The translations under genes were made by a program, and so were the position numbers. The notes beneath the pieces were generated by a model, which ran no database searches, had not been told where the DNA came from, and saw only the letters and a program-made list of their open reading frames with translations. A stretch of 64,000 nt of DNA, taken from Escherichia phage vB_EcoS_I14. Every line of letters starts with the position of its first letter. The stretch's first letter is position 1. This document shows positions 12,377 through 42,332 of the stretch, one piece after another. The stretch is taken from the sequence record PP892525.1; one strand, given 5' to 3'.

Positions 12377-12664
12377 CTACACATCTAGCTCAACGATCTC
12401 CCAATCATCCGCCAGAGCTTCTTCTAGGGTTAGGGAGGAGGTTTTCCATGTTGCGTCTTTTATATCGAACTTGGTATACCCATCTTCATTGGGCCACCAG
12501 GTAAACTCGACAATATCATTATTATCAACATCTACTTTTATAATAGTAGAGTAATAAGTACGAGAGTCCCAATTACCCCAGCTATCCCGCTGGAGATATT
12601 TTACATCTCCATCTTTGAGCAAATCTGTTAGCTTACTCACGGCGTTTTCCTTTTTCTTTATCAA
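12377..12664 (-). CDS. hypothetical protein (95 aa)
   Basis: ORF. Confidence 0.45.
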   Translation of the reverse strand: MIKKKENAVSKLTDLLKDGDVKYLQRDSWGNWDSRTYYSTIIKVDVDNNDIVEFTWWPNEDGYTKFDIKDATWKTSSLTLEEALADDWEIVELDV

Positions 12665-13337
12665 GCTTCAGGGCGGCCTTAACAGCTTCGTTAATCAACG
12701 TAATAATTTCTTCACGAGTCCACTTGTACCCTAGAGATTTTACGTCAACCCCTAGTTTTTCCAGATGTTTAACAGAAGCCAGCTCGTAATTCATATAATG
12801 AACGTTCTGTTGTTTGCCTTCCGATAGAAGCCATACACGGTAACAACCAACAGGATTATCCATTGCTTTTTTGATTTCACCGATACACTGGTATCCAGGA
12901 ACCCAAACAAGCTCACCAACTGCAAATTCTTCTGCTACAGCATCATCAGGAATAATCGGAGGATTCAATGGATCTACAATATCGTTCAAACGAAGTAGAG
13001 CACCATAGCGTTCCAGAACAGATTTAACCATTGCTACAGAGCGGTAATTACGATCGGCAATTTCTTCAAAAGAATCACCAGATAAATACTGCTCAATAAC
13101 GTTAGCTAACTCGATGCCTTCAATAAGTGTGCCACGTTTCTTTTTCTTCATTTCGGCAACTTGAATTTGGCGATCTTGCCACTCTTCAATCATCCTTTCC
13201 ATAGTTGGATTGGATGATACGCCGAGCATTTCACATGCTGCTTTCTTAGTACCACCGTTCTCCAGATGCTCTATAACCTTTTTAAAGACTTCATCAGGGA
13301 TTTCATGGATATGTTTCTTTCTACGAGAACCAGCCAT
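12633..13337 (-). CDS. putative HTH DNA-binding protein
   Basis: 234 aa; N-terminal segment TKKAACEMLGVSSNPTMERMIEEW looks like a helix-turn-helix. Confidence 0.5.
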   Translation of the reverse strand: MAGSRRKKHIHEIPDEVFKKVIEHLENGGTKKAACEMLGVSSNPTMERMIEEWQDRQIQVAEMKKKKRGTLIEGIELANVIEQYLSGDSFEEIADRNYRSVAMVKSVLERYGALLRLNDIVDPLNPPIIPDDAVAEEFAVGELVWVPGYQCIGEIKKAMDNPVGCYRVWLLSEGKQQNVHYMNYELASVKHLEKLGVDVKSLGYKWTREEIITLINEAVKAALKLDKEKGKRRE

Positions 13338-13405: not shown

Positions 13406-13648
13406 TTACGATTCCTTGAGCAAAGAAGCAAGTTCAGCATAGACTTTATCTAACTCAAAGCCGATGCGAAGAGACACGTTAGTTTTCCGTTGTTTAAGTA
13501 ACCACTCGGATATGTTAGGGATGCCAGCTAATCTATGTGGTACCACCCTACATAGCTTTTCCGAAGTGTCGTAAACAGGAACTTTACGTTCTTTTACTGG
13601 GAACTTCCTTGTTTCCCATTTTTTATTCTTCACTGTCATTTCTAGCAC
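13406..13648 (-). CDS. hypothetical protein (80 aa)
   Basis: ORF. Confidence 0.45.
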   Translation of the reverse strand: MLEMTVKNKKWETRKFPVKERKVPVYDTSEKLCRVVPHRLAGIPNISEWLLKQRKTNVSLRIGFELDKVYAELASLLKES

Positions 13649-16490
13649 CTAGCTCTGCCATTGCTTCATCATGCATATGTTTCTCCTCATCAGTCATAAA
13701 CTTATACGGGATTGGCATACATTCGATTTTACAATAGGTTCTGTACCAGTCTACAATATTCTCCGTGTTCATATCCTTACCAATACCCATCATACCAAGA
13801 TACATTCTGGCATATTTTGGGTTAGCACTCTGACCTGTTTTAAGGAAGAAATCTTTCTTCTTACCTTTCAGAGCTTCTATGAATGGTTTGATAGTGACAT
13901 TTGAGCACTTCTTAATATCTTCCCAGAACATCTCGTGCATTTTATGGAAGAATGCCGCTCGATCATTCGGTTTATCCTTGATATACTGCTCAACATGCTC
14001 AACTGTTACATCTTTAATAGACTCAAGATGATAATAGCGAACAAGAAGTAGTTTAGCTTCATACGCATCTGCATGACGTGGAGCACAATAATCAGGAGTT
14101 GAATACAAAATAGCTTTGATTCGCTCTTCCGTATATTCTTTTCCTGCACCTTCGATAGTTCCCCAGCTTTCACTGAAAATATCAATAGTTGCACCCTGAT
14201 CAAGCAAGTAATAACGTAAAGTACTAGTATAGTTCCTAGATTCCAGCTCCCTACGACGTGCGTATAATTGCTGTGCTAACTCCAGCCAACCTTCATCAAT
14301 GTTATACTGTTCAGAACCTGCGGAGAATCCACTCGTAGATTTATCAATAAAATAATAAATGTTCTGGGCACCACGGTCGCGCCTGATTGCTTGGAAACGC
14401 ATGTTTGGCGCTTGGTTGCTAGTTCTAGTAATAACGAATACGTTATCAAAATAGTTGAAGTCAACACCACTCGTTACGGATGGACTACATAATAAGCAAT
14501 CAATTTGTTGGTCAATTAACTCATTAGTTGTGTAATCCAGAATACGTCGAATATCTACATCAGACGTAGAGTTTGAGTGGATTTCCTTAACTAACGCACC
14601 CGTATTACGACGCAACGCCATGCCCTTCTCATTCAGTTCATCCGGCCCACAGTCAGATACTAGGATAGATTTCTCCCCCATCTCTAGAGATGTCTGAAGC
14701 GCAACCCAAATACTGGATTCATCAGGGAACTCATAAGCATGAGCTTTTGACAGCATTTTTCGGTGATGATTATAAAATGCAACCGGTTTATCAAACTCAA
14801 TCAAGGAACCATATGCTTCAATTGTTTCTGCACTAATATCACCATCAGATAATATAATGATTTTTGCAGTTGCAAGAATATCCCGAAGAACCTGAATGCA
14901 TTCACGACGTTGTTTAACAACCGGGGCGAATAGTAGGTCATTCATTACAGCATCACATTCATCGATAAAGATTGCATCAATTTGACCAATAAAACTCTTG
15001 AACTTATGCAAAGAGTGAATAGTTGTGGACATACGGTCAATAGCACCACGCTTAAAATTAAGCATATCTACAGACTTATCATATTGTCCTGCACTAAATT
15101 TCTTAGCATTTGAAGACACCAGTGCTCTAGTATTGGTAATTGCTAAGAAATTACCTTTAATAACTCCCGAATCTAACCAACGCACAACCGCCGTGGTTTT
15201 ACCTGTACCTAGACTTGCTTTTACAAAAGTCATATAACCTTCTGGTGGCACAGTATTTAATTTCAAGAAGTTATCAGTTTCTAGGGAGTTAGTTTCTAGC
15301 TTTTTAAGTGGAATACCTTTTAAAACATCAGGTATATCGCGTTTAGAATTATTAACAAACGCTTTCAGAGCCTGTTTACGACCGTTATTAAAGTAATCTT
15401 GAATATTACGACTATTATCTTTAGTTGCAATATATTCTGATAAGGCTGGGCGGATTTCTTTTTCTAGCCATGCAAAATCAACACCATCCTCTAAAGCCCT
15501 GTGATAGAGTTTAGGAATAATACGTAGATACACTCCATCCTCAGCTTCTTCTAGTTCGCTGATAGTTTCTTCTACTTTATCAGAGGCAGCTTTTTTACCC
15601 TTAATTTGGTCGAGTAAAGAGTAAAACTCCTCCTTAAACTCACCTCTAGTTGTTTCATAGTCAACCAGATTATTTGGTAAATTTACTTTAGAACCTTTAA
15701 CAAATACCAGACGTGAAGCACCCTCCGCCTTAAACGGATCTACTATACCATCGGTAAATAACGGATCTGCAAAATAATGGAGCTGTACGGAAGAGTAATA
15801 AGCTAAGTCGGCAATATCAAAGCCATACTTTTGTCTACTACTTTCGTTGATAGATGTAAATAAGAATTTGATTTGACCCTGAGTTACTTTAACATTAGAT
15901 TCTAGTATTAAGTGCATTCGGATACCTGGTTTTAGCCCAGCCGAAGATGATGCATGAGCGATAAACCCTGCATCAAGAGGAAACATATCCTCACTAATAC
16001 TATTTAACATTCTAATAATATGTCGAGCCATACCAACAAGATCAAACTTGTTACAACCACCTGTATCTACAATACCATCCACGTCCATTGCAATTATATG
16101 ACTTGGGTTAGATACATTAAAGTTGCCCTTCTTACGTCGCACATTATTTTTAGGTGCAAGACATCGACCTCGTACCGCAACGATATGAGGGTCAGACGTT
16201 AAACGCCTCATAAGAGGGAGCATTTCTACTAGGGTTTGAGGATCAACTTCATCAATTACATCAAACTTGAAGGGCATTGAAGCTGGTTTACCTTCAGGAT
16301 GCTTTGAGGAAAATCTTTTAGCAAAAAGATAGTCTTCTGCTTTAACTTCTCGCCAAATGCCTGTGGCTAAGTCGCGATGAAATCCTGCATGACCTTGTAG
16401 GATTGAGAACACAACAATACTCCTGTGTTGGAAATGAAATAAGTTTTCTTTAGGACTATTCAGAAAGAATAGAACAACTGTTACTGTCAA
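13623..16490 (-). CDS. large P-loop ATPase, helicase/origin-binding-like; start uncertain
   Basis: Walker A SLGTGKTT, Walker B IFIDECDAV; first codon of longest ORF is TTG at 16490, first ATG is at 16277. Confidence 0.65.
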   Translation of the reverse strand: MTVTVVLFFLNSPKENLFHFQHRSIVVFSILQGHAGFHRDLATGIWREVKAEDYLFAKRFSSKHPEGKPASMPFKFDVIDEVDPQTLVEMLPLMRRLTSDPHIVAVRGRCLAPKNNVRRKKGNFNVSNPSHIIAMDVDGIVDTGGCNKFDLVGMARHIIRMLNSISEDMFPLDAGFIAHASSSAGLKPGIRMHLILESNVKVTQGQIKFLFTSINESSRQKYGFDIADLAYYSSVQLHYFADPLFTDGIVDPFKAEGASRLVFVKGSKVNLPNNLVDYETTRGEFKEEFYSLLDQIKGKKAASDKVEETISELEEAEDGVYLRIIPKLYHRALEDGVDFAWLEKEIRPALSEYIATKDNSRNIQDYFNNGRKQALKAFVNNSKRDIPDVLKGIPLKKLETNSLETDNFLKLNTVPPEGYMTFVKASLGTGKTTAVVRWLDSGVIKGNFLAITNTRALVSSNAKKFSAGQYDKSVDMLNFKRGAIDRMSTTIHSLHKFKSFIGQIDAIFIDECDAVMNDLLFAPVVKQRRECIQVLRDILATAKIIILSDGDISAETIEAYGSLIEFDKPVAFYNHHRKMLSKAHAYEFPDESSIWVALQTSLEMGEKSILVSDCGPDELNEKGMALRRNTGALVKEIHSNSTSDVDIRRILDYTTNELIDQQIDCLLCSPSVTSGVDFNYFDNVFVITRTSNQAPNMRFQAIRRDRGAQNIYYFIDKSTSGFSAGSEQYNIDEGWLELAQQLYARRRELESRNYTSTLRYYLLDQGATIDIFSESWGTIEGAGKEYTEERIKAILYSTPDYCAPRHADAYEAKLLLVRYYHLESIKDVTVEHVEQYIKDKPNDRAAFFHKMHEMFWEDIKKCSNVTIKPFIEALKGKKKDFFLKTGQSANPKYARMYLGMMGIGKDMNTENIVDWYRTYCKIECMPIPYKFMTDEEKHMHDEAMAELGARNDSEE

Positions 16491-16911
16491 TTTCTCAACA
16501 AATTAATTGCAAATACTGAAGTGGGGTGGCAACTTCCACTTTCACGCTACACTGCCGCTTCACTATACCGCACAAATCCTTGAGGATGGCCGCTAAGCCA
16601 GATTTGCTCACCTAATGCTTCATGTACTAGCTCATACTAGATGTAGTATACCTTACGTCATCACTTCTCAGAGTTTTTCACTCTTCCCGTCTCACTTCAC
16701 AACCACCTCACACTAGGTTGCTTCGAGGCCTTACCAGGGTTCCTACGGGATGTAGATCGCTAAGTATTCTATTAATTATTTGTTTAAAAACTAACACGTA
16801 ACAGTTAAAACAACCCTTAATGGGGCAGCCTAACTGTTCCGTATCGCGGATTGTAAACAAGAAAAATTAGCAAAATCAATTTTTACTAATGTCTCTCAAT
16901 TCAATATAAAT

Positions 16912-16940
16912 ATTATATCAAGATTTTGGGCATCCTGCAA
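16912..16940 (-). promoter_or_regulatory. promoter (minus): -35 TTGCAG, -10 TATAAT, about 400 nt upstream of the ATPase gene
   Basis: plus ATTATA 16912-16917 and CTGCAA 16935-16940, 17 bp spacer. Confidence 0.5.
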
Positions 16941-17031
16941 GTAAAATTTTCCGGACGGTGCTATCATTGGTCTTGAGTACGGATAAAACCGAGCCAAAAT
17001 GACTCGGTAATCAGAGTTCAGCTAGTAAAAA

Positions 17032-17424
17032 TCATTCATCATTTAGGCCTGGAACATAGATCCCAACACGGTTTAATTGTTCTTTAGCTTCTTTGAGAAT
17101 ATCTGGAGTGTACTCCCAAATATCATCTTCCACCTGTAAAAGATGGGGCGAACAACCGTCATCCGGCACACGACATATGGCCAAACCACGTGGATGGAAC
17201 AAAGAGAAATTTAGGGCAACAATTAAACCCATAGCAGACAATTCATTCCAATCCAATTCCCATTCCCCCGCGTAGCCGGATAGGAAAACACCAACACAGG
17301 GATCATCTATTTGCTGCTCCGGAAAAGTGAGGGAGGCTTGTCTTACCCCCAACCAACGTTGTAGCAGCTTCTCCGCACGTTTCACCAAACTAGGGTCAAT
17401 CTGACGCCAATATACTTGTTCCAT
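17032..17424 (-). CDS. hypothetical protein, paralog of 17434..17862
   Basis: shared segments MGLIVALN, FHPRG, PGL. Confidence 0.55.
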   Translation of the reverse strand: MEQVYWRQIDPSLVKRAEKLLQRWLGVRQASLTFPEQQIDDPCVGVFLSGYAGEWELDWNELSAMGLIVALNFSLFHPRGLAICRVPDDGCSPHLLQVEDDIWEYTPDILKEAKEQLNRVGIYVPGLNDE

Positions 17425-17433
17425 TCTGCCTCC

Positions 17434-17862
17434 TTAAGCAGTTAAACCTGGGATCATATACCCGAAACGGCGAAGTTTTTGAATCCCCTCATTTACTTCT
17501 TCCGGTGAGTAAGACCAACCATAACGTTCATTAATCTGAAAACCAGGAGATTCACTAGTTTTATAGTTAACAACGAGGCGGTGCTTAGCAGGCATAAACA
17601 GCTTATAATTTAACGCAAAAACTAAGCCCATTTCGTCTAACTCTTTCCAGCCCACAATCTCTTCAAGACCATCCTCTACCTGAACAATTAAACCAATACA
17701 GGGAGCCTCATCAATATCATCTTTAAAAGCAAAGGAGATTTCGTTATTCTCACACCATATTTTCAAAGAGTTAATAGCCTCATTATACAGGCTAGCTGGG
17801 AGGGTACGCCAAAAGTTAACCAAAATTGGGTTAGCCTCTTTAGAGAAGACATTATTAAACAT
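17434..17862 (-). CDS. hypothetical protein, paralog of 17032..17424
   Basis: shared segments MGLVFALN, FMPAK, PGL; tandem arrangement. Confidence 0.55.
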   Translation of the reverse strand: MFNNVFSKEANPILVNFWRTLPASLYNEAINSLKIWCENNEISFAFKDDIDEAPCIGLIVQVEDGLEEIVGWKELDEMGLVFALNYKLFMPAKHRLVVNYKTSESPGFQINERYGWSYSPEEVNEGIQKLRRFGYMIPGLTA

Positions 17863-34477: not shown

Positions 34478-34549
34478 GCCGTCCTAGTATAATTGGTATT
34501 ATCAAGCCGTAACTGGTGGAAGATGTAGGTTCGAATCCTACGGTCGGTA
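34478..34549 (+). tRNA. tRNA-like element (degenerate; anticodon arm does not fold)
   Basis: canonical T arm GTAGG-TTCGAAT-CCTAC and acceptor GCCGTCC/GGTCGGT with mismatches. Confidence 0.35.
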
Positions 34550-35052
34550 AGAACTGGATAACTGATGCTTTTAACGTAAAAGCTTCCGAGGTTAGTTGCG
34601 CACTGCCTAAACCACGCGGTAGTTGGTTCCAGACTAACCAACCAGTCTGCTGAATAGTTTTATTACGATTTAACTATGTCCAGGCTAAAGAAGAACTTTA
34701 GAAGGTATTTCTAGGATAGTGAAGTTCTTTCTCCATATCGGAGTAGTTTTTCAAGCTATCCACAAAGTGGGAAATGCTGACATGAGAGATGTCACTAATG
34801 GTGCACAATAGCACAGGTAATTCGCGATAACTCCTGTTGAGTAGCAGCAAAAGGCGGGAAGTCATGACCCCAAGCCTAACCGAGTCCTCAATATACCGCA
34901 GGACATAACCACTAAGTCACCCTGACTTAAACTGGAAAATAATAGACGTTACTGTATTTTGTCTTGAAATACTTAATGAGTGAGACTTATGATTCTCCCG
35001 GTATCGTCTGTATTTTTAAGAGTTTTTACGAGAGTTCTTAAAAATACTTAAA

Positions 35053-35127
35053 CGGGGTGTAGTCTAATGGAGAGGCAGGAGTCTTCTAAATTCCTTTATG
35101 CAGGTTCGAATCCTGTCACCTCGGCCA
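35053..35127 (+). tRNA. tRNA-Arg (anticodon TCT)
   Basis: acceptor CGGGGTG/CACCTCG, anticodon loop CTTCTAA, T loop TTCGAAT, encoded CCA. Confidence 0.8.
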
Positions 35128-35161
35128 ATTTTATTAACTGTAACTAAAACAAAGGAAACAT

Positions 35162-36109
35162 ATGTTTAATACTAAAAATATGAAAGAATTGACTTCTGAG
35201 CAGAAAGTAATTCGTACTATTAAACGTTGGGGTATTGGTGCTATAGTTGGTTTAGCAGGTTTAATCCTAGCTTTTAATTCGTATACCATTGTTTCTGATG
35301 GTACGGTTAAAACCCAAACATTCCTGGGTAAAGTAGACCCTAATCCAGTATTACCTGGTTTCCATCTTGTAAACCCGTTTGCATCTTTCGATACTTTTAG
35401 TACAAAAGATATTGCTGTAAAATTAGATAAACTTCAGGTTCCTAGCCAGGATAAGTTTAAATCCACTGTTGACCTGACTGTTATGTTGCAGTTTGATGGT
35501 TCTAAGGCACCAATTAACCGTATTAACGCAGGTACTCAGGATCAAGCGTTAGACAAGTATGTAACTGAAAAATTACTGTCTACTATTCGTGAGTTTGGTA
35601 AGTCTGTACCTAAAGCACAAGATTTGTTTGATGCTAAAATTCAGGCTCAATTGCAAACCGCAATTCAACAAGAAGTTGAAGAGTATGCACGCCCATATGG
35701 TTACACAGTTAAGCAGGTATTCCTTCAGGATATTACTCTACCACCAGTAATCATGGAACAGGTACAGAATACCAAAGTTCGTGAAGAGCAAGTTAATGCT
35801 GCGAAAGCTGAATTGGCTCGTGTTGAACAGGAAGCACAGCAAAAAGTTAAACAAGCAGAAGCAGATCGTGAAGCTCGCAACAACCAAGCTATTGCTAATG
35901 AACGTGACGCAGATGCTAAACTGTACGCAGCTAAGAAAGAAGCTGAAGCTAACGCCGCACTGCAACGTACCATTACTCCTGAGATGATTCGTTGGAAACA
36001 ACTGGAAGTTGAGATGATTCGTGCTCAGAAATATCAAGGTGGTGTACCGCAGACTGTGGTTGGCACTGGCTATGATGGCCAAATGATTATGGATATGCGT
36101 AATAAATAA
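35162..36109 (+). CDS. SPFH/band-7 (prohibitin/HflC-like) membrane protein
   Basis: N-terminal TM helix GIGAIVGLAGLILAF, SPFH-like core, Ala/Glu/Gln-rich coiled-coil tail; 315 aa. Confidence 0.65.
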   Translation: MFNTKNMKELTSEQKVIRTIKRWGIGAIVGLAGLILAFNSYTIVSDGTVKTQTFLGKVDPNPVLPGFHLVNPFASFDTFSTKDIAVKLDKLQVPSQDKFKSTVDLTVMLQFDGSKAPINRINAGTQDQALDKYVTEKLLSTIREFGKSVPKAQDLFDAKIQAQLQTAIQQEVEEYARPYGYTVKQVFLQDITLPPVIMEQVQNTKVREEQVNAAKAELARVEQEAQQKVKQAEADREARNNQAIANERDADAKLYAAKKEAEANAALQRTITPEMIRWKQLEVEMIRAQKYQGGVPQTVVGTGYDGQMIMDMRNK

Positions 36110-36134
36110 TACCCGCACGTAACATCTGAAGTGA

Positions 36135-36170
36135 GCCCTGCGTTCCCTGGAGAGCGCAGGGCTTTTCTAT
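36135..36170 (+). terminator. rho-independent terminator
   Basis: 8 bp stem GCCCTGCG/CGCAGGGC followed by TTTTCTAT. Confidence 0.75.
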
Positions 36171-36205
36171 ATAATGTATTTGTAAATCTAACTAGGAGAT
36201 CAAAT

Positions 36206-36724
36206 ATGAATGTTGATGAGCTAATACAGCACCTCTTATCTAGGGGATTTGATACAGATAAATATCATTGCTGGTTAAGTCCGGAAGGATGGCTAACAGT
36301 CCCGTTGTATGACTTCTCTGGGATGTTGAGAGGCTATCAGACTTATAATCCTTCTGCTCCCAAAAGGCAGGGTAAGTGCCCATTTGAAGCTAAATATTTT
36401 ACCCATTCTACTACACAGTGTGTATGGGGGCTAGAAACTCTCAATGGAGATGAAAAAGTAGTATTGATTGCTGAATCTGTATTTAAGGCAGTTGCGTTAC
36501 ATAACGCTGGTTATCCCGCCCTAGCAATGTTGGGTTCTTCTCCGGGAAAAGCATTATTAAAGCAACTGAAATTACTACCTTTTAAATTGATAGCTATTGG
36601 TGACAATGATCCCGATGGTGAAAAATTTGCTAGAAAATTAAACGGCTTTGTTTCTCCCGTAGATGTGGATGAGATGTCTACCGAAAACTTGAAAAATTTT
36701 CTTGCTATGAAGCTAAATTTCTAA
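36206..36724 (+). CDS. small Toprim-domain protein
   Basis: VVLIAESVFKA (conserved Glu) and IAIGDNDPDGEKF (DxD); ATG at 36206 with RBS AGGAG. Confidence 0.5.
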   Translation: MNVDELIQHLLSRGFDTDKYHCWLSPEGWLTVPLYDFSGMLRGYQTYNPSAPKRQGKCPFEAKYFTHSTTQCVWGLETLNGDEKVVLIAESVFKAVALHNAGYPALAMLGSSPGKALLKQLKLLPFKLIAIGDNDPDGEKFARKLNGFVSPVDVDEMSTENLKNFLAMKLNF

Positions 36725-36730
36725 TATAAT
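36702..36730 (+). promoter_or_regulatory. T5-type promoter overlapping the 3' end of the Toprim ORF
   Basis: -35 TTGCTA 36702-36707, -10 TATAAT 36725-36730; tRNA-Ser begins 16 nt downstream. Confidence 0.65.
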
Positions 36731-36745
36731 ATATCTTATAAATTC

Positions 36746-36834
36746 GGAAGAATAGCATAACGGTATTGCAGCAGATTGCTAATCTGTCGGTTTGAAATAT
36801 AGCCTTGTGGGTTCGATTCCCACTTCTTCCGCCA
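36746..36834 (+). tRNA. tRNA-Ser (anticodon GCT), long variable arm
   Basis: acceptor GGAAGAA/TTCTTCC, anticodon loop TTGCTAA, T loop TTCGATT, encoded CCA. Confidence 0.8.
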
Positions 36835-36840
36835 GATTTT

Positions 36841-36918
36841 GGTTCTCAAGCTCATATGGTATGAGCACCCGGCTCATAACCGGAAGGTACGTAGGTTCGA
36901 ATCCTCGGGGAGCCACCA
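36841..36918 (+). tRNA. tRNA with anticodon CAT (Met, fMet or Ile-lysidine)
   Basis: anticodon loop CTCATAA; acceptor GGTTCTC/GGGAGCC; T stem imperfect. Confidence 0.6.
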
Positions 36919-37134
36919 ATTAAATAGAGGTCACAAATGGATCTATATATATAGTTTATGTTGTGTTTATCCAAGATAGAGAATACCCGGATGAATATAA
37001 AAAAGGATATAGGTTAGCCAGAGCTACTTCTGAAGCCCAAGCTATGGATAAAGTGGCAGATTATATGATTACAGTAGAAAACGTACACTATATCGACTAC
37101 CTTGAAGCCTCAAAAGTAATTGACTAAACTACAT

Positions 37135-37211
37135 GGGGGTGTAATCGAATTGGCATAGGTACTGGACTTAAAATTCAGGTTTTGTGGGTTCGAATCCCAC
37201 CACCCCTACCA
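37135..37211 (+). tRNA. tRNA with anticodon TAA on a short-variable-loop scaffold
   Basis: acceptor GGGGGTG/CACCCCT, anticodon stem CTGGA/TTCAG with loop CTTAAAA, T arm GTGGG-TTCGAAT-CCCAC, CCA; D arm weak. Confidence 0.55.
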
Positions 37212-37226
37212 AATTAAGGAAATAAG

Positions 37227-37394
37227 ATGTATAGACATCCACCTCCGCCAACACGTCGTTCTAGAGAAGTTATCCTCATGGAATTAACTAAAAACTTCAA
37301 GGCAACTCTTGAAGATAGAGATCTAGGCACGGATGAAGACATTGATTTTATTTGTAGACTACTAAAGATGAAACTGGAGAAACAACATGGCTAA
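37227..37394 (+). CDS. hypothetical small protein (55 aa), below the ORF-track cutoff
   Basis: ATG at 37227 after RBS AAGGAAA; stop overlaps next start (ATGGCTAA). Confidence 0.4.
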   Translation: MYRHPPPPTRRSREVILMELTKNFKATLEDRDLGTDEDIDFICRLLKMKLEKQHG

Positions 37395-37593
37395 TCCTGA
37401 AATTACCGCACAACGTTTCATGCTTAAAGGCATGATTGCTGAAGCAGGTATGACTCAAGAGGTTGCAGACTTTCATAAGCAAATTCTTGATATTATAACT
37501 CTAGCTAAAGAGACTGGAGAAAAAGAGCACGCAGCAGCAATTATGGCTATATCTCTTATTAGTCTAGACTTGGCTGAAGAATCTGGAGTTTAG
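37387..37593 (+). CDS. hypothetical protein (68 aa)
   Basis: ORF. Confidence 0.45.
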   Translation: MANPEITAQRFMLKGMIAEAGMTQEVADFHKQILDIITLAKETGEKEHAAAIMAISLISLDLAEESGV

Positions 37594-37623
37594 CTCCTCC
37601 AAACAGAATTTTTAAAAATGTAC

Positions 37624-37653
37624 TTGCCTTTTGCTTTAAATTTCTGATATAAT
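37624..37653 (+). promoter_or_regulatory. T5-type promoter: -35 TTGCCT, -10 TATAAT
   Basis: 18 bp spacer; RBS AAGGAG before 37684. Confidence 0.6.
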
Positions 37654-37683
37654 AGTTATATAAATTGATGAAGGAGTTAACGA

Positions 37684-37959
37684 ATGCAAAATCGTGTTGT
37701 AGCAGCTGGTATTGAAAGTGCAATCTGTAAATCCTGGGAAGGCTGGGAAGGTGAGATTGAATGGCTTTATTTCTACGATGTAGAACTTCTTCCAGAAGTT
37801 AAAGCTAAATGTGTTGAAGCTGGCATGGCTCCAGATGCAAAAGCTGATATTGATATTTCAATGTCTGAACTTAAAGGTCGTGTAATTACTGTTGGTGATG
37901 AGGGCGAAGAAGTTTTCGAACTTCCGTTCTCCTTAACTGTCACTCCTAAGTTCGACTAA
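37684..37959 (+). CDS. hypothetical acidic protein (91 aa)
   Basis: ORF. Confidence 0.5.
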   Translation: MQNRVVAAGIESAICKSWEGWEGEIEWLYFYDVELLPEVKAKCVEAGMAPDAKADIDISMSELKGRVITVGDEGEEVFELPFSLTVTPKFD

Positions 37960-37995
37960 CTAATACAGCACTGAGCAAGTTCTTTAAAATTTGAC

Positions 37996-38024
37996 TTGCT
38001 CAGTGCCTTAAAACTTGGTATAAT
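37996..38024 (+). promoter_or_regulatory. T5-type promoter: -35 TTGCTC (overlapping TTGACT), -10 TATAAT
   Basis: 17 bp spacer; drives tRNA-Tyr. Confidence 0.6.
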
Positions 38025-38087
38025 AGTTATCTAATTTGGAAACATATTTAAAAGTGTTTAAACTAATATTTGAATACTTTTAAATAT

Positions 38088-38175
38088 GGGCGTTTATTCC
38101 GTAAGTGGTAGCGGAGGGGATTGTAAATCCCTGGTCATTGCGACTCGAGTGGTTCGACTCCATTAACGCCCACCA
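38088..38175 (+). tRNA. tRNA-Tyr (anticodon GTA), long variable arm
   Basis: acceptor GGGCGTT/AACGCCC, anticodon loop TTGTAAA, T loop TTCGACT, CCA. Confidence 0.8.
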
Positions 38176-38192
38176 AATTAAAGGTAAAGGAT

Positions 38193-38684
38193 ATGTATAT
38201 TGATAGGATAATTCAAGAAGCTGCAAATAGGGGTATTATACAGTTAGGTTCACCCGCTGATATAAACAAAGATCTAATATTAGAGAGCCTCACATTTGGT
38301 ACAGCTAACTTTGGTCGCGATAGTAATCGTCGGTATAGTTTGAAGTTATCTGCTCTATCTTTTATCAAGTATAACAAAAGTATTGGAGAAAAATCCAGCT
38401 GTGGTTTTATTTATGCAATAACTAACCCAGCTTGGGATAACTATGTAAAAATTGGTATGTCTTCTGATCCTAAAACAAGATTAGGAAATTACCAGACTTA
38501 CTCTCCTTTACGTGATTATAAGTTAATACATTGGTCATTTTGGTTTAATGCTAGAGAAGCTGAGAAAATGCTTCATAATAGCTTTCCCGAACGGCTTAAT
38601 GAATGGGTAGTATTAGATAGAAGTGTAGATGAAATACTTTCTGAGTTTAATAATCTATCCAATAAACAATTTAAGTCCTGTTAG
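38193..38684 (+). CDS. GIY-YIG motif protein (homing-endonuclease-like)
   Basis: CGFIYAITNPAWDNYVKIGMSS...R...Y matches the GIY-(10)-YIG pattern, unusually in the C-terminal half. Confidence 0.5.
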   Translation: MYIDRIIQEAANRGIIQLGSPADINKDLILESLTFGTANFGRDSNRRYSLKLSALSFIKYNKSIGEKSSCGFIYAITNPAWDNYVKIGMSSDPKTRLGNYQTYSPLRDYKLIHWSFWFNAREAEKMLHNSFPERLNEWVVLDRSVDEILSEFNNLSNKQFKSC

Positions 38685-38751
38685 ACAAACTGGTAAAGTC
38701 ACTACCCTTTCAAGGTAGGGTTTGTGGGTTCGATCCCCGCACAGGACGCCA
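38675..38751 (+). tRNA. tRNA-Glu (anticodon TTC)
   Basis: perfect acceptor GTCCTGT/ACAGGAC, anticodon stem CTACC/GGTAG with loop CTTTCAA, T loop TTCGATC, CCA. Confidence 0.85.
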
Positions 38752-38759
38752 ATTTCTGC

Positions 38760-38836
38760 ATTCCTAGAGTGTTACTGGACAGCATGTCGGTCTCCAAAAC
38801 CGTACGGTCTAGGTTCGAGTCCTAGTAGGTTTGCCA
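38760..38836 (+). tRNA. possible tRNA-Trp (anticodon CCA) with a mismatched acceptor stem
   Basis: anticodon loop CTCCAAA, T arm CTAGG-TTCGAGT-CCTAG, CCA; acceptor has two U-U oppositions. Confidence 0.45.
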
Positions 38837-38842
38837 AAATTT

Positions 38843-38917
38843 GCACCTTTAGCTGAGATGGATTAGCGCTTGCCTGAAGAGCTTGAGAGGTTCGTTCGAT
38901 ACGAACAGGGTGCACCA
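38843..38917 (+). tRNA. probable tRNA-Phe (anticodon GAA)
   Basis: acceptor GCACCTT/AGGGTGC, anticodon loop CTGAAGA, T arm GTTCG-TTCGATA-CGAAC, CCA; two mismatches in anticodon stem. Confidence 0.55.
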
Positions 38918-38919
38918 AA

Positions 38920-39207
38920 TTGAAGGAGCTGCTGATGCATCCTGAAAACTTCTTTATTTACTGCGCTGATAAGTCGCTAAAACGTAGAATTAACAAAGTC
39001 TATCATTATCGTGCTAGTCAACAGCCTTATGTATATGCTTTTGACGGTGATCACATTCCACTAGAACAATTATCTTGTGATTACATGATATTGAAGAACT
39101 TTGACGAGACGAAGATCTCAAGCGTTCACAATCGACAGAATCCATTAACGTGGAAATATAAGAAGAAAAAGAAAGGAATCAAATTCTTAAAAAATGTAGT
39201 TGCTTAG
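38920..39207 (+). CDS. hypothetical protein (95 aa)
   Basis: ORF. Confidence 0.45.
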   Translation: MKELLMHPENFFIYCADKSLKRRINKVYHYRASQQPYVYAFDGDHIPLEQLSCDYMILKNFDETKISSVHNRQNPLTWKYKKKKKGIKFLKNVVA

Positions 39208-39228
39208 TTTCCAAAAGTTCTGTATAAT
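39200..39228 (+). promoter_or_regulatory. T5-type promoter: -35 TTGCTT, -10 TATAAT
   Basis: 17 bp spacer. Confidence 0.65.
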
Positions 39229-39239
39229 AATTACATAAA

Positions 39240-39482
39240 TTGAACTGGAGAAGCAACATGACAGAACAAGAATTGAATGAACGTAAGCTGGTAATGCTTC
39301 GCTTACTAAATATTTTCTCTGGTATGGACGGTGGAATTGACTTTGTTCATCTACGTTCTTTCGTAGAAGAAGCCGAAGGCGAATCTATCACTAAAATCCT
39401 TAAACACATGGGATTACTTTTAGATGCTGCTAATGTGGCTACTGAATATAAACTAGAAGATCTACCGGAGCGTGTTAAATGA
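39240..39482 (+). CDS. hypothetical protein (80 aa)
   Basis: RBS GGAG. Confidence 0.5.
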   Translation: MNWRSNMTEQELNERKLVMLRLLNIFSGMDGGIDFVHLRSFVEEAEGESITKILKHMGLLLDAANVATEYKLEDLPERVK

Positions 39483-39670
39483 AACGATTAGTTAGATTTA
39501 AGTGTTGTGGTTCTGAACATATTTTCACACATCTTCGTGAATTTAAAATGTGTGATTGTGGTAAATCAGGCTATGACTCAGGAGATGGGTTCTACGCCCG
39601 TACTCTAGGGAACTTCAATGATCTAGAATTTGAAGATCTCGAAAAGCAAGATAAATCGACCGTTGGCTGA
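39479..39670 (+). CDS. hypothetical zinc-ribbon-like protein (63 aa)
   Basis: Cys pairs CCGSEH...CDCGKSG. Confidence 0.45.
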   Translation: MKRLVRFKCCGSEHIFTHLREFKMCDCGKSGYDSGDGFYARTLGNFNDLEFEDLEKQDKSTVG

Positions 39671-39732
39671 ATGGCTTAGGCGAAGGATTGCAAATCCTTT
39701 TTATGTGAGTTCAAATCTCATGCGGTCGTCCA
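39657..39732 (+). tRNA. tRNA-Cys (anticodon GCA)
   Basis: acceptor CGACCGT/GCGGTCG, anticodon stem AAGGA/TCCTT with loop TTGCAAA, T loop TTCAAAT, CCA. Confidence 0.8.
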
Positions 39733-39739
39733 AATTTTA

Positions 39740-39822
39740 GGGTCGTTAGCCAAGCGGTTTGGCGGCGGATTGTTAATCCGTGTCGAAAGACAACGTAGGT
39801 TCGAATCCTACACGGCCCGCCA
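39740..39822 (+). tRNA. tRNA with anticodon GTT on a long-variable-arm (type II) scaffold
   Basis: acceptor GGGTCGT/ACGGCCC, anticodon stem GCGGA/TCCGT with loop TTGTTAA, 13 nt variable arm GTCGAAAGACAAC, T arm GTAGG-TTCGAAT-CCTAC, CCA. Confidence 0.6.
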
Positions 39823-39924
39823 AATTCTGTGTAGAGTTAAGTAAACCGGTAGCCAACCAGCTATCATTGCTGACATCGAATTCAGCCACAGATACCATTT
39901 TCATTAATAACTGAGGAAACAAGC

Positions 39925-40110
39925 ATGTCCAAGAATGTAATTGCACAGTTAGAAGTTCATCGTGATAACACAGCTAATAACATTAAGTGCCGACAAAAAG
40001 ATATTGAAGCTCGAAAGGCTGATCTTTTAATGAGTATTCGAGAGCTTAATGTACGAAAAGAGTTTCTTAAAGAACTTAATGCAGCTATTGAAAAACTCAA
40101 AGCTGAGTAA
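39925..40110 (+). CDS. hypothetical protein (61 aa)
   Basis: RBS GAGGAAA. Confidence 0.45.
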   Translation: MSKNVIAQLEVHRDNTANNIKCRQKDIEARKADLLMSIRELNVRKEFLKELNAAIEKLKAE

Positions 40111-40119
40111 ATGAATTAT

Positions 40120-40196
40120 GCGACCGGGGCTGGCTTGGTAATGGTACTCCCCTGTCACGGGAGGGAATGTGGGTTCAAATCCCATCGGTCGCGCCA
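40120..40196 (+). tRNA. tRNA-Asp (anticodon GTC)
   Basis: perfect acceptor GCGACCG/CGGTCGC, anticodon stem CTCCC/GGGAG with loop CTGTCAC, T loop TTCAAAT, CCA. Confidence 0.85.
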
Positions 40197-40222
40197 AACT
40201 AAACTAGCACGAGAAATATGAT

Positions 40223-40570
40223 ATGGTTAATGCTAAAGAAGAATTGTTACTTGCCCTAAAGAATACTAATTCTGAAGTTAAGTGTATTAAGATAGAATTC
40301 GGTTATTATGGGGACAAAGAAGTTTGGGTATTACCCATAGGTTATACAGAAAAAGATATTGAAGATTTTCTAAATAATCTAGACTTTAAATATGATTCTG
40401 GTTTCGGTGGACAATTGCTTTATGGTAACGTATGGTTTACTGATGGAACTTGGTTAGAACGTGGTGAATACGACGGTTCTGAATGGTGGGAATATAAGGC
40501 TACACCAGCAATCCCAGAAGAATGCCGAACAATTAATGGTGAAGTAGATCGTACTTTACTATTAAATTAA
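40223..40570 (+). CDS. hypothetical protein (115 aa)
   Basis: ORF. Confidence 0.5.
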   Translation: MVNAKEELLLALKNTNSEVKCIKIEFGYYGDKEVWVLPIGYTEKDIEDFLNNLDFKYDSGFGGQLLYGNVWFTDGTWLERGEYDGSEWWEYKATPAIPEECRTINGEVDRTLLLN

Positions 40571-40692
40571 CAAAATTTCAGTGCAGAACACGGAGCTAGC
40601 AATTCGGAAGTGCTGACTCATGATAAGCTGCCTATGTACTTGCGAAGCGGTCGTGTCCAAGACTCGGACTCTTGCACTGAAAACAATCAAAC

Positions 40693-40813
40693 ATTCTAGC
40701 GTGGTTGATGGGGAAACCAGCTTGGCTAGGGCAGAAGCTCGTTCGATTCGAGTGAAAGAATGGTTCTCGTAAGTCCGCACAAGTGATAGCAGGTTCGAGT
40801 CCTGTCTAGAATG
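40693..40813 (+). ncRNA. candidate tRNA-like RNA of about 121 nt with an enlarged central region
   Basis: 7 bp acceptor-like helix ATTCTAG/CTAGAAT, D-arm-like TGGTT...AACCA, canonical T arm GCAGG-TTCGAGT-CCTGT, but about 68 nt where an anticodon arm should be. Confidence 0.35.
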
Positions 40814-40962
40814 ACACTATAAAGTTTACTTATTATGTAGGTTCCGATAGATCGGCGGGTCTATTCTGGCATTTAAGAGAAGTCTCGCAAACTTTTTTGT
40901 CAGCCGTGGGGTTGGTAGCCTCCAGGTGGCCTACACAATAAGTAAATTTATTAAAAATTCAT

Positions 40963-40991
40963 TTGCTATTCTGCTTTATTATCTGTATAAT
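40963..40991 (+). promoter_or_regulatory. T5-type promoter: -35 TTGCTA, -10 TATAAT
   Basis: 17 bp spacer. Confidence 0.7.
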
Positions 40992-41023
40992 ATATTTTAT
41001 AAAGTGAAGAGAAGGAAAGCAAA

Positions 41024-41182
41024 ATGAAACACAAGATAGCTCAAGTCTTTATGGCATTATGGTGTATGCCAATAGCTATAACAGCATTTAATCTAGATAC
41101 TTTTACTATAGAAGAAAAATATATCGGATTAGTTAGCGGCTTTAGTATGCTGGGCTTATCTTTGCTGTGGTTAAAGAAATAA
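41024..41182 (+). CDS. hypothetical small membrane protein (52 aa), below the ORF-track cutoff
   Basis: ATG at 41024 after RBS AAGGAAAG; hydrophobic. Confidence 0.4.
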   Translation: MKHKIAQVFMALWCMPIAITAFNLDTFTIEEKYIGLVSGFSMLGLSLLWLKK

Positions 41183-41186
41183 TATT

Positions 41187-41264
41187 CTCCGTGTAGCTCA
41201 GTTTGGCCAGAGCGTTTCGTCTGGAGCGATAGGGTCGGGGGTTCAAATCCTCCCACGGAGACCA
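41187..41264 (+). tRNA. possible tRNA-Pro (anticodon TGG), atypical anticodon loop
   Basis: acceptor CTCCGTG/CACGGAG, D stem GCTC/GAGC, loop TCTGGAG with C at position 33, T arm GGGGG-TTCAAAT-CCTCC, CCA. Confidence 0.5.
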
Positions 41265-41270
41265 AATAAT

Positions 41271-41348
41271 TGCGGGTTAGATCTCTGGTAGAGATCGCTA
41301 GTCTCATAAGCTAGAAAGAGGTAGGTTCGATTCCTGCACCCGCTTCCA
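41271..41348 (+). tRNA. tRNA with anticodon CAT (Met, fMet or Ile-lysidine)
   Basis: anticodon stem CTAGT/GCTAG with loop CTCATAA, D stem GATC/GATC, T loop TTCGATT, CCA; position 1-72 mispaired. Confidence 0.65.
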
Positions 41349-41368
41349 TTTTAATAGAGGATTTCGAA

Positions 41369-41536: not shown

Positions 41537-41537
41537 T

Positions 41538-41616: not shown

Positions 41617-41620
41617 AATT

Positions 41621-41694: not shown

Positions 41695-41713
41695 ATTAAC
41701 TCAAAATAAGGAA

Positions 41714-42310: not shown

Positions 42311-42332
42311 GCCTTAGTAAACTAAAGAATTT

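What the first reader, a model, noticed from the sequence alone, without database searches (positions are those of the whole stretch)
13623..16990. 955 aa ATPase preceded by a 400 nt untranslated leader with an uncertain start
The only recognisable minus-strand promoter upstream (16912-16940) lies about 420 nt before the first possible start of the 13623..16490 ORF. The intervening 16500-16900 has no ORF on either strand and contains GC-rich hairpins (for example GTGGGGTGGCAACTTCCAC). The longest ORF begins with TTG and no RBS; the first ATG (16277) has a distant GAAGG. A long structured leader may regulate this gene or mark an origin next to a helicase-like protein.
Basis: seen in the sequence. 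Interest (0 to 1): 0.45.

Follow-up and report, generated by a model that had tools for sequence, protein, structure and literature searches.

The report
Structured leader RNA before T5 helicase
The long gap in front of this T5-type phage's replication helicase gene encodes a large, elaborately folded RNA of about 335 bases that appears in no annotation seen here or in Rfam; the gene's "uncertain start" is an ordinary GTG with a good ribosome-binding site.

Summary
The window comes from a T5-like phage. The ORF is the T5 D2 / "origin-binding protein" SF2 helicase. Its real start is GTG 16412, with AGGAG seven bases upstream, giving 929 aa rather than 955. Relatives annotate this start, distant relatives have ATG at the same position, and the published active D2 protein was cloned from this codon.

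The 619-nt gap (16413-17031) is real and unannotated apart from a terminator and a promoter. It holds a terminator, two tandem sigma-70 promoters and a ~335-nt structured domain (16475-16810, minus strand). That domain is closed by a 31-45 bp AU-rich helix. Inside it are about ten helices, an invariant GCUUAGCGGC hairpin and a loop-loop pseudoknot.

Between close relatives the flanks are 93-100% identical, but the core is only ~40% identical while keeping the same length. Base pairing is kept in 94-96% of cells, against 33-47% in slid controls, and 28-36 of 51 pairs show compensatory changes. G·U pairs far outnumber A·C pairs, so the mRNA-sense strand is the folded one.

A model built from one subfamily finds the other subfamily at the same place. 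Rfam has no match. No iterons and no GC-skew switch mark an origin here.

Best guess: a cis-acting regulatory leader that is probably processed. The function itself is untested.

The parts
13623..16412 (-). D2 / 'replication origin binding protein' gene: an SF2 helicase of 929 aa starting at GTG 16412
   Evidence: PHROG 3712 matches profile positions 1-927 to residues 27-952 of the long ORF. Pfam Herpes_ori_bp. PDB herpes OBP chains and NCBIfam CyRepA1. Relatives' CDS coordinates. Wong et al. 2013 cloned active D2 from this codon (PMC3632103).
16420..16424 (-). Shine-Dalgarno AGGAG, 7 nt before the GTG
   Evidence: Read from the sequence. An RBS is annotated at the same place in phiR2-01.
16456..16472 (-). 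Small hairpin CUAUUC-UUUCU-GAAUAG between helix P1 and the SD. It has no U-run, so it is not a terminator.
   Evidence: The scan found no terminator in the leader.
16475..16810 (-). The whole structured RNA domain (~335 nt), bounded by helix P1
   Evidence: Same length (319-342 nt) in every type. MFE -97.8 kcal/mol, z = -3.35.
16764..16806 (-). P1 5' strand, AU-rich, pairs with 16476-16516
   Evidence: Inverted repeats I1 and I7. Duplex of 36-48 bp in all 9 types, z = -4.5 to -8.6 in 7 of them.
16476..16516 (-). P1 3' strand
16539..16766 (-). Core of the domain: helices P2', P2, P3, P3a, P4a/b, P5, P6, P8 and P8a. This is the only match to covariance model R1 in the 64-kb window.
   Evidence: R1 match of 266 bits. 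Pair counts.
16706..16710 (-). UGAGG in the P4 terminal loop: the 5' half of the loop-loop pseudoknot
   Evidence: It covaries with 16581-16585: UGAGG/CCUCA, UAGAG/CUCUA, UUAAGG/CCUUAA, UUAAGG/CCUUAG. In subfamily 2 the equivalents are UAGG/CCUA, UGGG/CCCA and CAUGUG/UACAUG, read.
16581..16585 (-). CCUCA in the 3' internal loop of P8: the 3' half of the pseudoknot
16662..16669 (-). Conserved unpaired junction GAGAAGUG, between P5 and P6
   Evidence: Invariant or nearly invariant columns in A4. No consistent pairing partner was found.
16573..16606 (-). P8 with the invariant cap GCUUAGCGGC (P8a: a UAGC loop closed by U·G and C-G)
   Evidence: CTTAGCGG is the only fully invariant block across all types. 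All 6 pairs of the outer P8 stem covary.
16519..16541 (-).
   Evidence: Compensatory AGUGG/CCACU to AGGGG/CCCCU within type A. A different but complementary sequence in every other type.
16825..16837 (-). Conserved 5' hairpin CAG-UUAGG-CUG, near the predicted 5' end of the transcript from the second promoter
   Evidence: CAG/CUG in types A, B, R, D, E and M; CGG/CCG in L052.
16850..16879 (-). Promoter-like site PB: TTGATT-18-TACAAT
   Evidence: In S132 and SP76 an HNH gene sits between PA and PB, and the RNA downstream is intact.
16912..16940 (-). Promoter-like site PA: TTGCAG-17-TATAAT with an extended -10 TG
   Evidence: Annotated as a promoter in the T5 records.
16983..17007 (-). Intrinsic terminator of the upstream gene: CCGAG-UCAUUUUGG-CUCGG-UUUUAU
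   Evidence: Annotated as a terminator in BF23 and T5.

Best explanation
Shown.
- The gene is the T5 D2 helicase and starts at GTG 16412.
- In front of it, after a terminator and two tandem sigma-70-type promoters, lies a ~335-nt element that is under selection as a folded single strand of the same sense as the mRNA.
- It has a 31-45 bp AU-rich closing helix (P1).
- Its multi-branched core holds a four-way junction at P2, three-way junctions at P3 and P6, a pseudoknot between the P4 loop and the P8 internal loop, an invariant GCUUAGCGGC cap and a conserved unpaired GAGAAGUG.
- It always sits 54-63 nt before the D2 start codon, with no terminator in between.

Inferred.
- It is transcribed as the 5' untranslated leader of the D2 mRNA and acts in cis to set how much helicase is made from very strong early promoters.
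- I think the most likely route is that it binds a protein or small ligand. The complexity and the invariant unpaired bases point to specific recognition.
- P1, a near-continuous duplex of more than two helical turns, is probably cut by host RNase III. That would detach the folded core from the D2 message and change the message's stability or translation.

The two ancient sequence subfamilies of the core have been exchanged between T5-like phages as a cassette bounded by P1.
For: Identity and start of the gene.

Structure on a plain MAFFT alignment of 12 subfamily-1 cores:
- 96.4% of cells are paired, against 33-47% when the partners are slid.
- 28 of 51 pairs have changes on both sides, against 4-7 in the slid controls.
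- 0 of 500 shuffles reach the observed values.

Model test:
- A covariance model built from subfamily 1 alone finds the T5, phiR2-01 and Sugarland cores full length at the homologous place, with E from 3e-7 to 5e-4.
- On that 24-sequence alignment 93.7% of cells are paired against 35-44% slid, and 36 of 51 pairs are compensatory.

Further points:
- Strand: 125 G·U cells against 19 A·C cells. The sense strand folds 19 kcal/mol better than the antisense strand.
- P1 is 36-48 bp in 9 types of unrelated sequence.
- The pseudoknot covaries.
- Position: the distance from P1 to the start codon is 54-63 nt in all types.
- No terminator lies in the leader.
- An HNH insertion upstream leaves the RNA-D2 unit intact.
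- Cassette exchange: against T5 the flanks are 93-100% identical but the core ~50%. Against STG2-like L013 the flanks are 70-85% but the core 87-98%.
- Both core types occur in both Tequintavirus and Epseptimavirus.
Against: - No transcript data were available, so the 5' end, any processing and the stability of the RNA are all unverified.
- No expression platform was found. The SD is not paired in a conserved way, and no terminator or antiterminator alternative is conserved.
- RNase III cleavage is inferred only from the length of the helix.
- The element is missing from more distant OBP-carrying relatives (the 46-49% identity group, Vibrio phages, Aeromonas phages), so D2-type helicases do not need it.
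- The deep sequence divergence between types, with cassette exchange, is not an obvious expectation for a simple cis-regulator.
- The CM-fitted alignment leans towards the structure. One search does not have that bias, but its structure was drawn from the window sequence.
Confidence: 0.45

Rival explanations
1. A trans-acting non-coding RNA. The folded core is released from the leader, for example by cleavage in P1. It then works elsewhere: as a decoy or sponge for a host or defence factor, or as a cofactor of a phage protein. Its place in front of D2 only supplies a strong early promoter.
For: - The fold has the size and complexity of stand-alone RNAs, with a pseudoknot and invariant loops.
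- A long closing helix is the classical way to excise stable RNAs.
- The core diverges much faster than its surroundings and is swapped between phages as a cassette, which fits an arms-race target.
Against: - It has no terminator of its own.
- It is never found anywhere except directly upstream of the OBP gene. There is one copy per genome region, one hit in the 64-kb window, and a motif scan of IMG/VR gave only T5-like loci plus unrelated chance matches.
- Its distance to the start codon is fixed.
Confidence: 0.25
2. An origin of replication, or an origin transcript. Transcription from PA/PB through the AT-rich arm forms an R-loop or a primer RNA, as in T4 ori(uvsY), T7 or ColE1 RNA II. Alternatively the folded single strand is a loading or priming site for D2.
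For: - It lies next to the initiator-like helicase.
- It sits at about 48.6-48.9% of the T5 genome.
- Strong promoters are followed by arms of about 25% GC.
- ColE1-type primer RNAs also keep their structure while the sequence diverges (my own knowledge, not tested here).
Against: - No iterons or repeated binding sites.
- No DnaA-box-like site in the gap; the nearest is about 1.5 kb away at 18512.
- No opposite-strand promoter for an antisense regulator.
- The cumulative GC-skew minimum is at 22-23 kb, where the gene direction flips, not here.
- An R-loop origin does not explain a pseudoknotted multi-junction fold.
- T5 is reported to use multiple origins (cited in PMC3632103).
Confidence: 0.15
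3. There is no RNA function. The region would be a DNA-level feature (a cruciform, a recombination hot spot or a scar of a mobile element such as a homing-endonuclease cassette), or it would encode small proteins.
For: - HNH homing endonuclease genes do insert in this gap in some relatives.
- A few records annotate small hypothetical ORFs here.
- The region is a mosaic junction.
Against: - Compensatory changes in 28-36 of 51 pairs, with strand-specific G·U tolerance, cannot come from DNA-level or coding constraints.
- The arms are 270 nt apart, too far for cruciform extrusion.
- The 50-aa ORF is not annotated in most relatives, and it crosses sequence that is only ~40% identical between types.
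Confidence: 0.05

Closest known systems
T5 D2 bipolar helicase, annotated as 'replication origin binding protein' (PHROG 3712; Pfam PF02399, the herpes UL9 family)
   Same: The ORF in the window is this protein, 91-100% identical to T5-like phage homologs. It has the same start and the same Walker A at residues 399-406.
   Different: Nothing differs for the protein. The published work and the database records say nothing about its leader.
RNase III-processed stems that flank functional RNAs or sit in phage early mRNAs (rRNA operon processing stalks, T7 R sites, the lambda N leader)
   Same: A long, mostly continuous duplex (31-45 bp with single-base bulges) is formed by sequences on either side of a folded RNA, inside an early phage transcript of an enterobacterial host.
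   Different: Cleavage has not been shown. The enclosed RNA matches no known family. Known T7 sites are simple hairpins of about 60 nt, not closures of a 250-nt core.
Long autoregulatory or sensory 5' leaders (E. coli rne 5' UTR, T4 gene 32 and gene 43 operators, T-box and cobalamin leaders)
   Same: It is a structured, conserved, promoter-proximal element in cis, at a fixed distance before the start codon of a replication gene.
   Different: No expression platform, ligand or binding protein was identified. There is no match to any Rfam leader or riboswitch model. It is larger than the T4 operators.
Large phage-associated structured RNAs (GOLLD, ROOL)
   Same: It is several hundred nucleotides long, has a multi-junction fold, is encoded by phages, and has no known function.
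   Different: There is no similarity in an Rfam search at E up to 10 on the gap, or up to 1 on four relatives' loci. It lies in an mRNA leader rather than as a free-standing gene near tRNAs, and its distribution is narrow (T5-like phages of enterobacteria).
ColE1 RNA II / RNA I primer system
   Same: Both are an RNA of about 500 nt from a strong promoter beside replication functions, with structure conserved while the sequence diverges into types.
   Different: No antisense promoter was found. There is no evidence of an origin at its 3' end; instead the RNA is followed by a translated gene.

Membership tests
T5 D2 / OBP-type SF2 helicase (PHROG 3712, PF02399) | Full-length sequence match to the family profile | tested here: met
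   PHROG 3712 scores 1814.7 bits, profile 1-927 against residues 27-952. PF02399 scores 29.1 bits against a cutoff of 20.
T5 D2 / OBP-type SF2 helicase (PHROG 3712, PF02399) | Walker A GxGKT at the position mutated (K405E) in the characterised protein | tested here: met
   SLGTGKTT lies at residues 399-406 of the 929-aa form. The numbering is that of PMC3632103.
T5 D2 / OBP-type SF2 helicase (PHROG 3712, PF02399) | Start codon homologous to that of relatives | tested here: met
   GTG 16412 matches the CDS start in phiP4, T5_ev212, T5 and BF23. Sugarland, DU_PP_V and My1 have ATG there.
Any Rfam 15 family (riboswitches, leaders, group I/II introns, RNase P, tmRNA, 6S, GOLLD, ROOL and others) | Covariance-model match at or near the gathering score | tested here: not met
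   The window at gathering thresholds gives only tRNAs. The gap 16300-17100 at E<=10 gives only snoRNA noise at 13-18 bits. The loci of T5, My1, phiR2-01 and a metagenome variant at E<=1 give nothing in the element.
Conserved structured RNA (generic criterion) | Base pairs maintained by compensatory changes beyond the controls | tested here: met
   94-96% of cells paired against 33-47% slid, 28-36 of 51 pairs compensatory, 0 of 500 shuffles as high.
Conserved structured RNA (generic criterion) | Strand specificity (G·U tolerated, A·C not) | tested here: met
   125 G·U cells against 19 A·C cells.
Riboswitch / attenuator leader | Expression platform: an intrinsic terminator or a conserved SD-sequestering helix alternative to the sensor fold | tested here: not met
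   There is no terminator between the promoters and the start codon. SD pairing in MFE folds is not conserved between types. One alternative pairing (16796-16807 with 16831-16842) exists only in types A, B and R.
RNase III substrate | About 20 bp or more of near-continuous double-stranded RNA | tested here: met
   P1 is 9+11+7+4 bp with single-base interruptions in the window. It is 36-48 bp in 9 types. These are predictions only.
RNase III substrate | Cleavage in vivo or in vitro | not testable with these tools
   This needs Northern blots or 5'/3' end mapping in rnc+ and rnc- hosts.
Replication origin (iteron or DnaA type) | Clustered repeated initiator-binding sites | tested here: not met
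   Only chance two-copy repeats were found in 16350-17100. DnaA-box-like sites occur at the chance level, with none in the gap and the nearest at 18512.
Replication origin (any type) | Strand-composition switch at the site, or measured initiation | tested here: inconclusive
   The cumulative GC-skew minimum is at 22-23 kb, where the gene orientation flips. In phages this reflects transcription as much as replication. Initiation cannot be tested here.
ColE1-type primer RNA | Antisense regulator RNA with its own promoter | tested here: not met
   No plus-strand promoter-like site lies in 16000-17500. This is a consensus scan only.

The most novel reading that the evidence does not exclude
This would be a new class of large, pseudoknotted structured RNA carried by T5-like phages. 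It would be excised from the helicase leader through its long closing helix and have a function of its own. Candidates are licensing or priming replication together with D2, or neutralising a host factor. Two ancient, interchangeable sequence types would be kept in circulation by cassette exchange between phages.
Probability: 0.25. Interest if true: 0.8.

Novelty: new member of a known kind. Interest (0 to 1): 0.6.

Why it matters
T5 has been a model phage for seventy years, and its early promoters are standard laboratory tools. Yet a 335-nt RNA fold next to its replication helicase carries no annotation in any record inspected here. That includes two T5 records, BF23 and 535 matching phage genomes. 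It is also absent from Rfam 15.

Large multi-junction, pseudoknotted RNAs are rare, and they usually turn out to have specific biochemical roles. This one offers many natural sequence variants of a single fold, which is ideal material for structure determination. It also has a clear genetic handle, since it could be deleted or swapped in a tractable phage.

If it controls D2, it would be a new layer of control over phage replication initiation. In practical terms:
- The start codon of the gene is settled.
- The small "hypothetical proteins" that some pipelines call in this gap should be treated as spurious.
- Engineers who edit this region, or reuse its promoters, should know that the leader is functional sequence.

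Tried and rejected
- **Rfam.** Searches at gathering and permissive thresholds on the window, the gap and four relatives' loci gave no family.
- **RNAalifold on a plain MAFFT alignment of all types.** It recovered only 29 pairs because the types are too divergent to align by sequence. A hand-drawn structure plus a covariance model replaced it.
- **A second, broader covariance model.** These share only the GCUUAGCGGC hairpin.
- **R1 on distant relatives.** With filters off, R1 finds nothing in them, nor in the Vibrio, Aeromonas or 46-49% identity groups.
- **Other genomic contexts.** The IMG/VR scan with GAGAAGTG-N55-85-GCTTAGCGGC returned four T5-like loci and 17 unrelated stretches with no R1 match. 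The genome-contig scan with the OBP profile found nothing.
- **Similarities suggested by eye.** I considered RNase P CR-V, the 23S L11-binding hairpin, lambda boxB (the P5 loop GAAAA) and an anti-SD mimic (CCUCCUUA in two types). I dropped them all. They are not conserved across types, and the anti-SD-like stretch turned out to be half of the covarying pseudoknot.
- **A k-turn reading of the AA/GAAG internal loop in P4.** It did not fit the consensus.
- **D2 N-terminal domain.** I suspected a primase-polymerase fold for residues 1-390 because D110, D112 and H167 are invariant. No Pfam or PDB sequence support appeared. The homolog search returned only two fragments. The single-sequence AlphaFold model was unusable at pLDDT 34.
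- **Literature.** Searches found the D2 helicase paper but nothing on the leader. The 1976 origin-mapping paper is not held.
Full report
**What the window is.** The window carries 24 tRNA genes in one cluster. The region 13400-17500 matches 528 phage records at 80-99% identity, nearly all of them T5-like phages of Salmonella, Escherichia and Klebsiella (Demerecviridae). The genes in the first ~22 kb run on the minus strand.

**The gene and its start.**
- The 955-aa ORF (13623..16490, TTG) exists.
- It is the protein called D2, or "replication origin binding protein". PHROG 3712 matches over its whole profile, beginning at residue 27 of the long ORF.
- Pfam Herpes_ori_bp covers the Walker A region. 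Solved herpesvirus OBP chains and the NCBIfam CyRepA1 plasmid replication family match the helicase core.
- Residue 27 is GTG at 16412-16410. It is preceded by AGGAG at 16424-16420 with a 7-nt spacer.
- Five annotated relatives place the CDS start at this position.
- More distant relatives (Sugarland, DU_PP_V, My1) have ATG at the homologous codon, and T5 and a Providencia phage have GTG.
- Wong et al. 2013 cloned enzymatically active D2 from this codon. Their Walker A numbering (399-406, K405E) fits the 929-aa form (PMC3632103).
- The uncertain start is therefore resolved. The TTG and the first ATG are irrelevant.

**The gap.**
- Between the upstream gene (stop at 17032) and GTG 16412 lie 619 nt. 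Almost all of the 535 matching phage records leave them blank.
- The T5 and BF23 records mark only a terminator and a promoter near the 5' end.
- Reading 5' to 3' on the minus strand, the gap contains:
  - an intrinsic terminator (17007-16983);
  - a second promoter-like site PB (16879-16850: TTGATT-18-TACAAT);
  - a small conserved hairpin (16837-16825);
  - a ~335-nt block (16810-16475);
  - a short hairpin (16472-16456);
  - the SD.
- No terminator-like site lies in the leader, and no promoter-like site lies on the plus strand.

**The unusual pattern.**
- Aligned with T5 and BF23, the first 235 nt and the last 75 nt of the gap are almost identical to the window. The ~310 nt in between are only ~40% identical, yet the length is the same to within two bases.
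- Along 7.8 kb, window-to-T5 identity is 93-100% upstream and 77-98% in D2, but ~50% in 16500-16812.
- The reverse also occurs. L013, an STG2-like phage, has flanks only 70-85% identical to the window but a core 87-98% identical.
- Both core types occur in Tequintavirus (phiP4 against T5) and in Epseptimavirus (SP76 against S132).
- The core therefore behaves as a cassette exchanged between phages, bounded by the outer part of one helix.
- I collected loci through the OBP protein and from GenBank. This gave at least seven sequence types. Their core identities are 22-53% between types, and their lengths are 319-342 nt:
  - A, window-like;
  - S, a metagenome contig;
  - E, Pectobacterium DU_PP_V;
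  - M, Pectobacterium My1;
  - B, T5-like;
  - R, Yersinia phiR2-01;
  - D, Klebsiella Sugarland-like.

**The fold.**
- Independent folds of each type give the same architecture.
- A long AU-rich helix P1 closes the domain. In the window its runs are 9+11+7+4 bp with single-base interruptions, and it can be extended further.
- Across nine representatives whose P1 sequences are unrelated, the flanks form 36-48 bp. The z-scores are -4.5 to -8.6 in seven of them, and the two weaker ones are L052 and Sugarland.
- Inside P1 are hairpin P9 and a stem P2'/P2. That stem encloses a four-way junction of P3 (itself carrying P3a and the two-part P4), P5 and P6 (carrying a variable P7 and P8).
- P8 ends in the only fully invariant block, GCUUAGCGGC.
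- GAGAAGUG between P5 and P6 is conserved and unpaired.

**Tests of the fold.**
- On a plain MAFFT alignment of 12 distinct subfamily-1 cores, I drew the structure from the window sequence:
  - 96.4% of cells form standard pairs, against 33-47% when the 3' partners are slid by 1-3 columns.
  - 28 of 51 pairs have changes on both sides, against 4-7 in the slid controls.
  - No shuffle out of 500 reaches any of the five measures.
- I built a covariance model from that alignment alone.
  - It finds the subfamily-2 cores (T5-like, phiR2-01, Sugarland-like) full length at the homologous position, with E from 3e-7 to 5e-4.
  - It finds exactly one site in the 64-kb window, 16539-16766 on the minus strand.
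- On the resulting 24-sequence alignment, 93.7% of cells are paired against 35-44% slid, and 36 of 51 pairs are compensatory. That alignment is fitted to the model, so it leans towards the structure. One search does not have that bias.
- Examples visible by eye:
  - P2 is CUACA/UGUAG, CUGUG/CACAG, CUGCG/CGCAG, CUAGAA/UUCUAG or CCAUA/UAUGG.
  - P3 is CCCGU/ACGGG, CCCAU/AUGGG, ACCC/GGGU or GCGG/CCGC.
  - P8 is CAAAUC/GAUUUG, AUAGAAU/GUUCUAU, UCAGAAU/GUUCUGA or CCACAU/GUGUGG.
- The terminal loop of P4 is complementary to the 3' internal loop of P8 in every type, and the sequence differs each time.
  - In subfamily 1 the pairs are UGAGG/CCUCA, UAGAG/CUCUA, UUAAGG/CCUUAA and UUAAGG/CCUUAG. They are in register in the MAFFT alignment, and three pairs change on both sides.
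  - In subfamily 2 the pairs are UAGG/CCUA, UGGG/CCCA and CAUGUG/UACAUG (read).
  - The four-base cases are individually weak. The in-register covariation in subfamily 1 is what supports a pseudoknot joining the two halves of the core.

**Which strand, and RNA or DNA.**
- In the paired cells there are 125 G·U against 19 A·C.
- The sense strand folds at -97.8 kcal/mol against -79.1 for the antisense strand.
- The folded strand is the one with the sense of the D2 mRNA, downstream of two promoters. A transcript is therefore the natural carrier of the structure.
- A folded single DNA strand cannot be formally excluded.

**Distribution.**
- The element is present in every T5-like phage of enterobacteria that I examined: Tequintavirus, Epseptimavirus, Sugarland-like phages and the Pectobacterium phages My1 and DU_PP_V.
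- It always lies directly upstream of the OBP gene, with 54-63 nt between P1 and the start codon.
- Where an HNH homing endonuclease gene has entered the gap (S132, SP76), it sits between PA and PB and leaves the RNA-D2 unit intact.
- The model finds nothing in Providencia/Proteus phages, Vibrio phages, Aeromonas phages or a 46-49% identity metagenomic group, even with filters off. Several of these also have long ORF-free stretches before the OBP gene.
- A motif scan of IMG/VR found no copy in any other context.

**What it is not.**
- It matches no Rfam 15 family, including introns, RNase P, riboswitches, leaders, GOLLD and ROOL.
- It has no iterons.
- No DnaA-box-like site lies in the gap; the nearest is about 1.5 kb away at 18512.
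- There is no GC-skew switch here; the minimum is at 22-23 kb.
- It has no terminator of its own and no conserved SD-sequestering alternative.
- I found no description of it in the papers I could search. A survey of more than ten thousand candidate viral structured RNAs does not mention T5-like phages or helicase leaders in its main text (PMC10690425). Its supplementary lists were not checked.

**How it most likely works.**
- Shown: a conserved, sense-strand, pseudoknotted fold, physically coupled to the D2 translation start and placed behind strong early promoters.
- Inferred: it is the 5' untranslated leader of the D2 mRNA and acts in cis on the amount of helicase made.
  - It probably does so through specific recognition by a protein or ligand. 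Invariant unpaired bases and this degree of complexity are not needed for a mere stabiliser.
  - P1 is probably cut by host RNase III. This rests on established knowledge that E. coli RNase III cleaves duplexes of about two helical turns, as in T7 early mRNAs and rRNA precursors.
- I give this reading about 0.45.
- A trans-acting role for the released core (0.25) would better explain the fast divergence and the cassette exchange.
- An origin or primer role (0.15) would fit the neighbourhood and the mid-genome position in T5 (59.1-59.5 kb of 121.75 kb), but it has no sequence support.
- Non-RNA explanations are nearly excluded by the covariation.
- That a real, selected structured RNA is there, I hold at about 0.95.

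**Verdict.**
- The start-codon puzzle was an oversight.
- The gene is already known.
- The leader is, as far as these tools show, a new RNA family of unknown function in a classical model phage.

Noticed in passing
window 34478-45691 (+): A cluster of 24 tRNA genes, typical of T5-like phages. ARAGORN and Rfam each, but the two sets are not the same: Rfam calls 34478-34549 and 36841-36915, while ARAGORN calls 38088-38175 and 43085-43178.
   Followed up: no
window 12512-12712 (-): A second sharply divergent patch against T5 (40-51% identity, inside flanks of 90-99%). It lies at the junction of ORFs 12377..12664 and 12633..13337. It may be another exchanged cassette.
   Followed up: no
window 8406, 9649, 16590, 33519, 56802, 59006: The octamer CTTAGCGG, the invariant cap of P8, occurs 6 times in the window against about 1 expected (0 of 100 shuffles reach 6). 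The other five copies lie outside the leader, on both strands, and share no context.
   Followed up: partly
L107 740-1192 (S132) and L108 740-1192 (SP76): A 453-nt gene has been inserted in the gap between the two promoters, upstream of the intact RNA. It is annotated as an HNH homing endonuclease in S132 and as a hypothetical protein in SP76. It occurs with either core type.
   Followed up: partly
window 15243-16412 (D2 residues 1-390): The N-terminal 390 aa of D2 match no Pfam or PDB family. In an alignment reaching down to 26% identity, D110, D112, H167 and an SxSxG..G.R.H stretch are invariant. This resembles the catalytic motifs of primase-polymerases. It was not confirmed, because the AlphaFold single-sequence model failed (pLDDT 34).
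   Followed up: partly
L042 1-1308; L058 1026-2000; L055 1124-2000; L041 773-1635; L090 1181-2000: Distant OBP-carrying phages (Aeromonas, Vibrio and Proteus-like) also have stretches of 800-1300 nt before the OBP gene with no ORF of 60 aa or more. In Aeromonas phage TS3 the octamer CUUAGCGG occurs twice (L042 positions 198 and 442); the copy at 198 caps a long hairpin. This may be a different leader RNA that shares one module.
   Followed up: partly
window 16796-16807 and 16831-16842 (-): The outer 5' strand of P1 (UAACUGUUACGU) can also pair with an upstream copy of the P1 3' strand sequence (ACGGAACAGUUA). This gives a possible alternative hairpin. It exists only in types A, B and R, so its meaning is unclear.
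   Followed up: partly
window 17032-17424 and 17434-17862 (-): Different records name the two small genes upstream of the gap 'tail tube protein', 'phage exonuclease' or 'hypothetical protein'. NCBIfam finds nothing for them, so these names look unreliable.
   Followed up: partly
window 12633-13337 (-): The name 'D2 protein' is attached in some records to this 234-aa ORF, which phiP4 annotates as Mrr-like. In others it is attached to the 929-aa helicase. This is a naming conflict in the databases.
   Followed up: no
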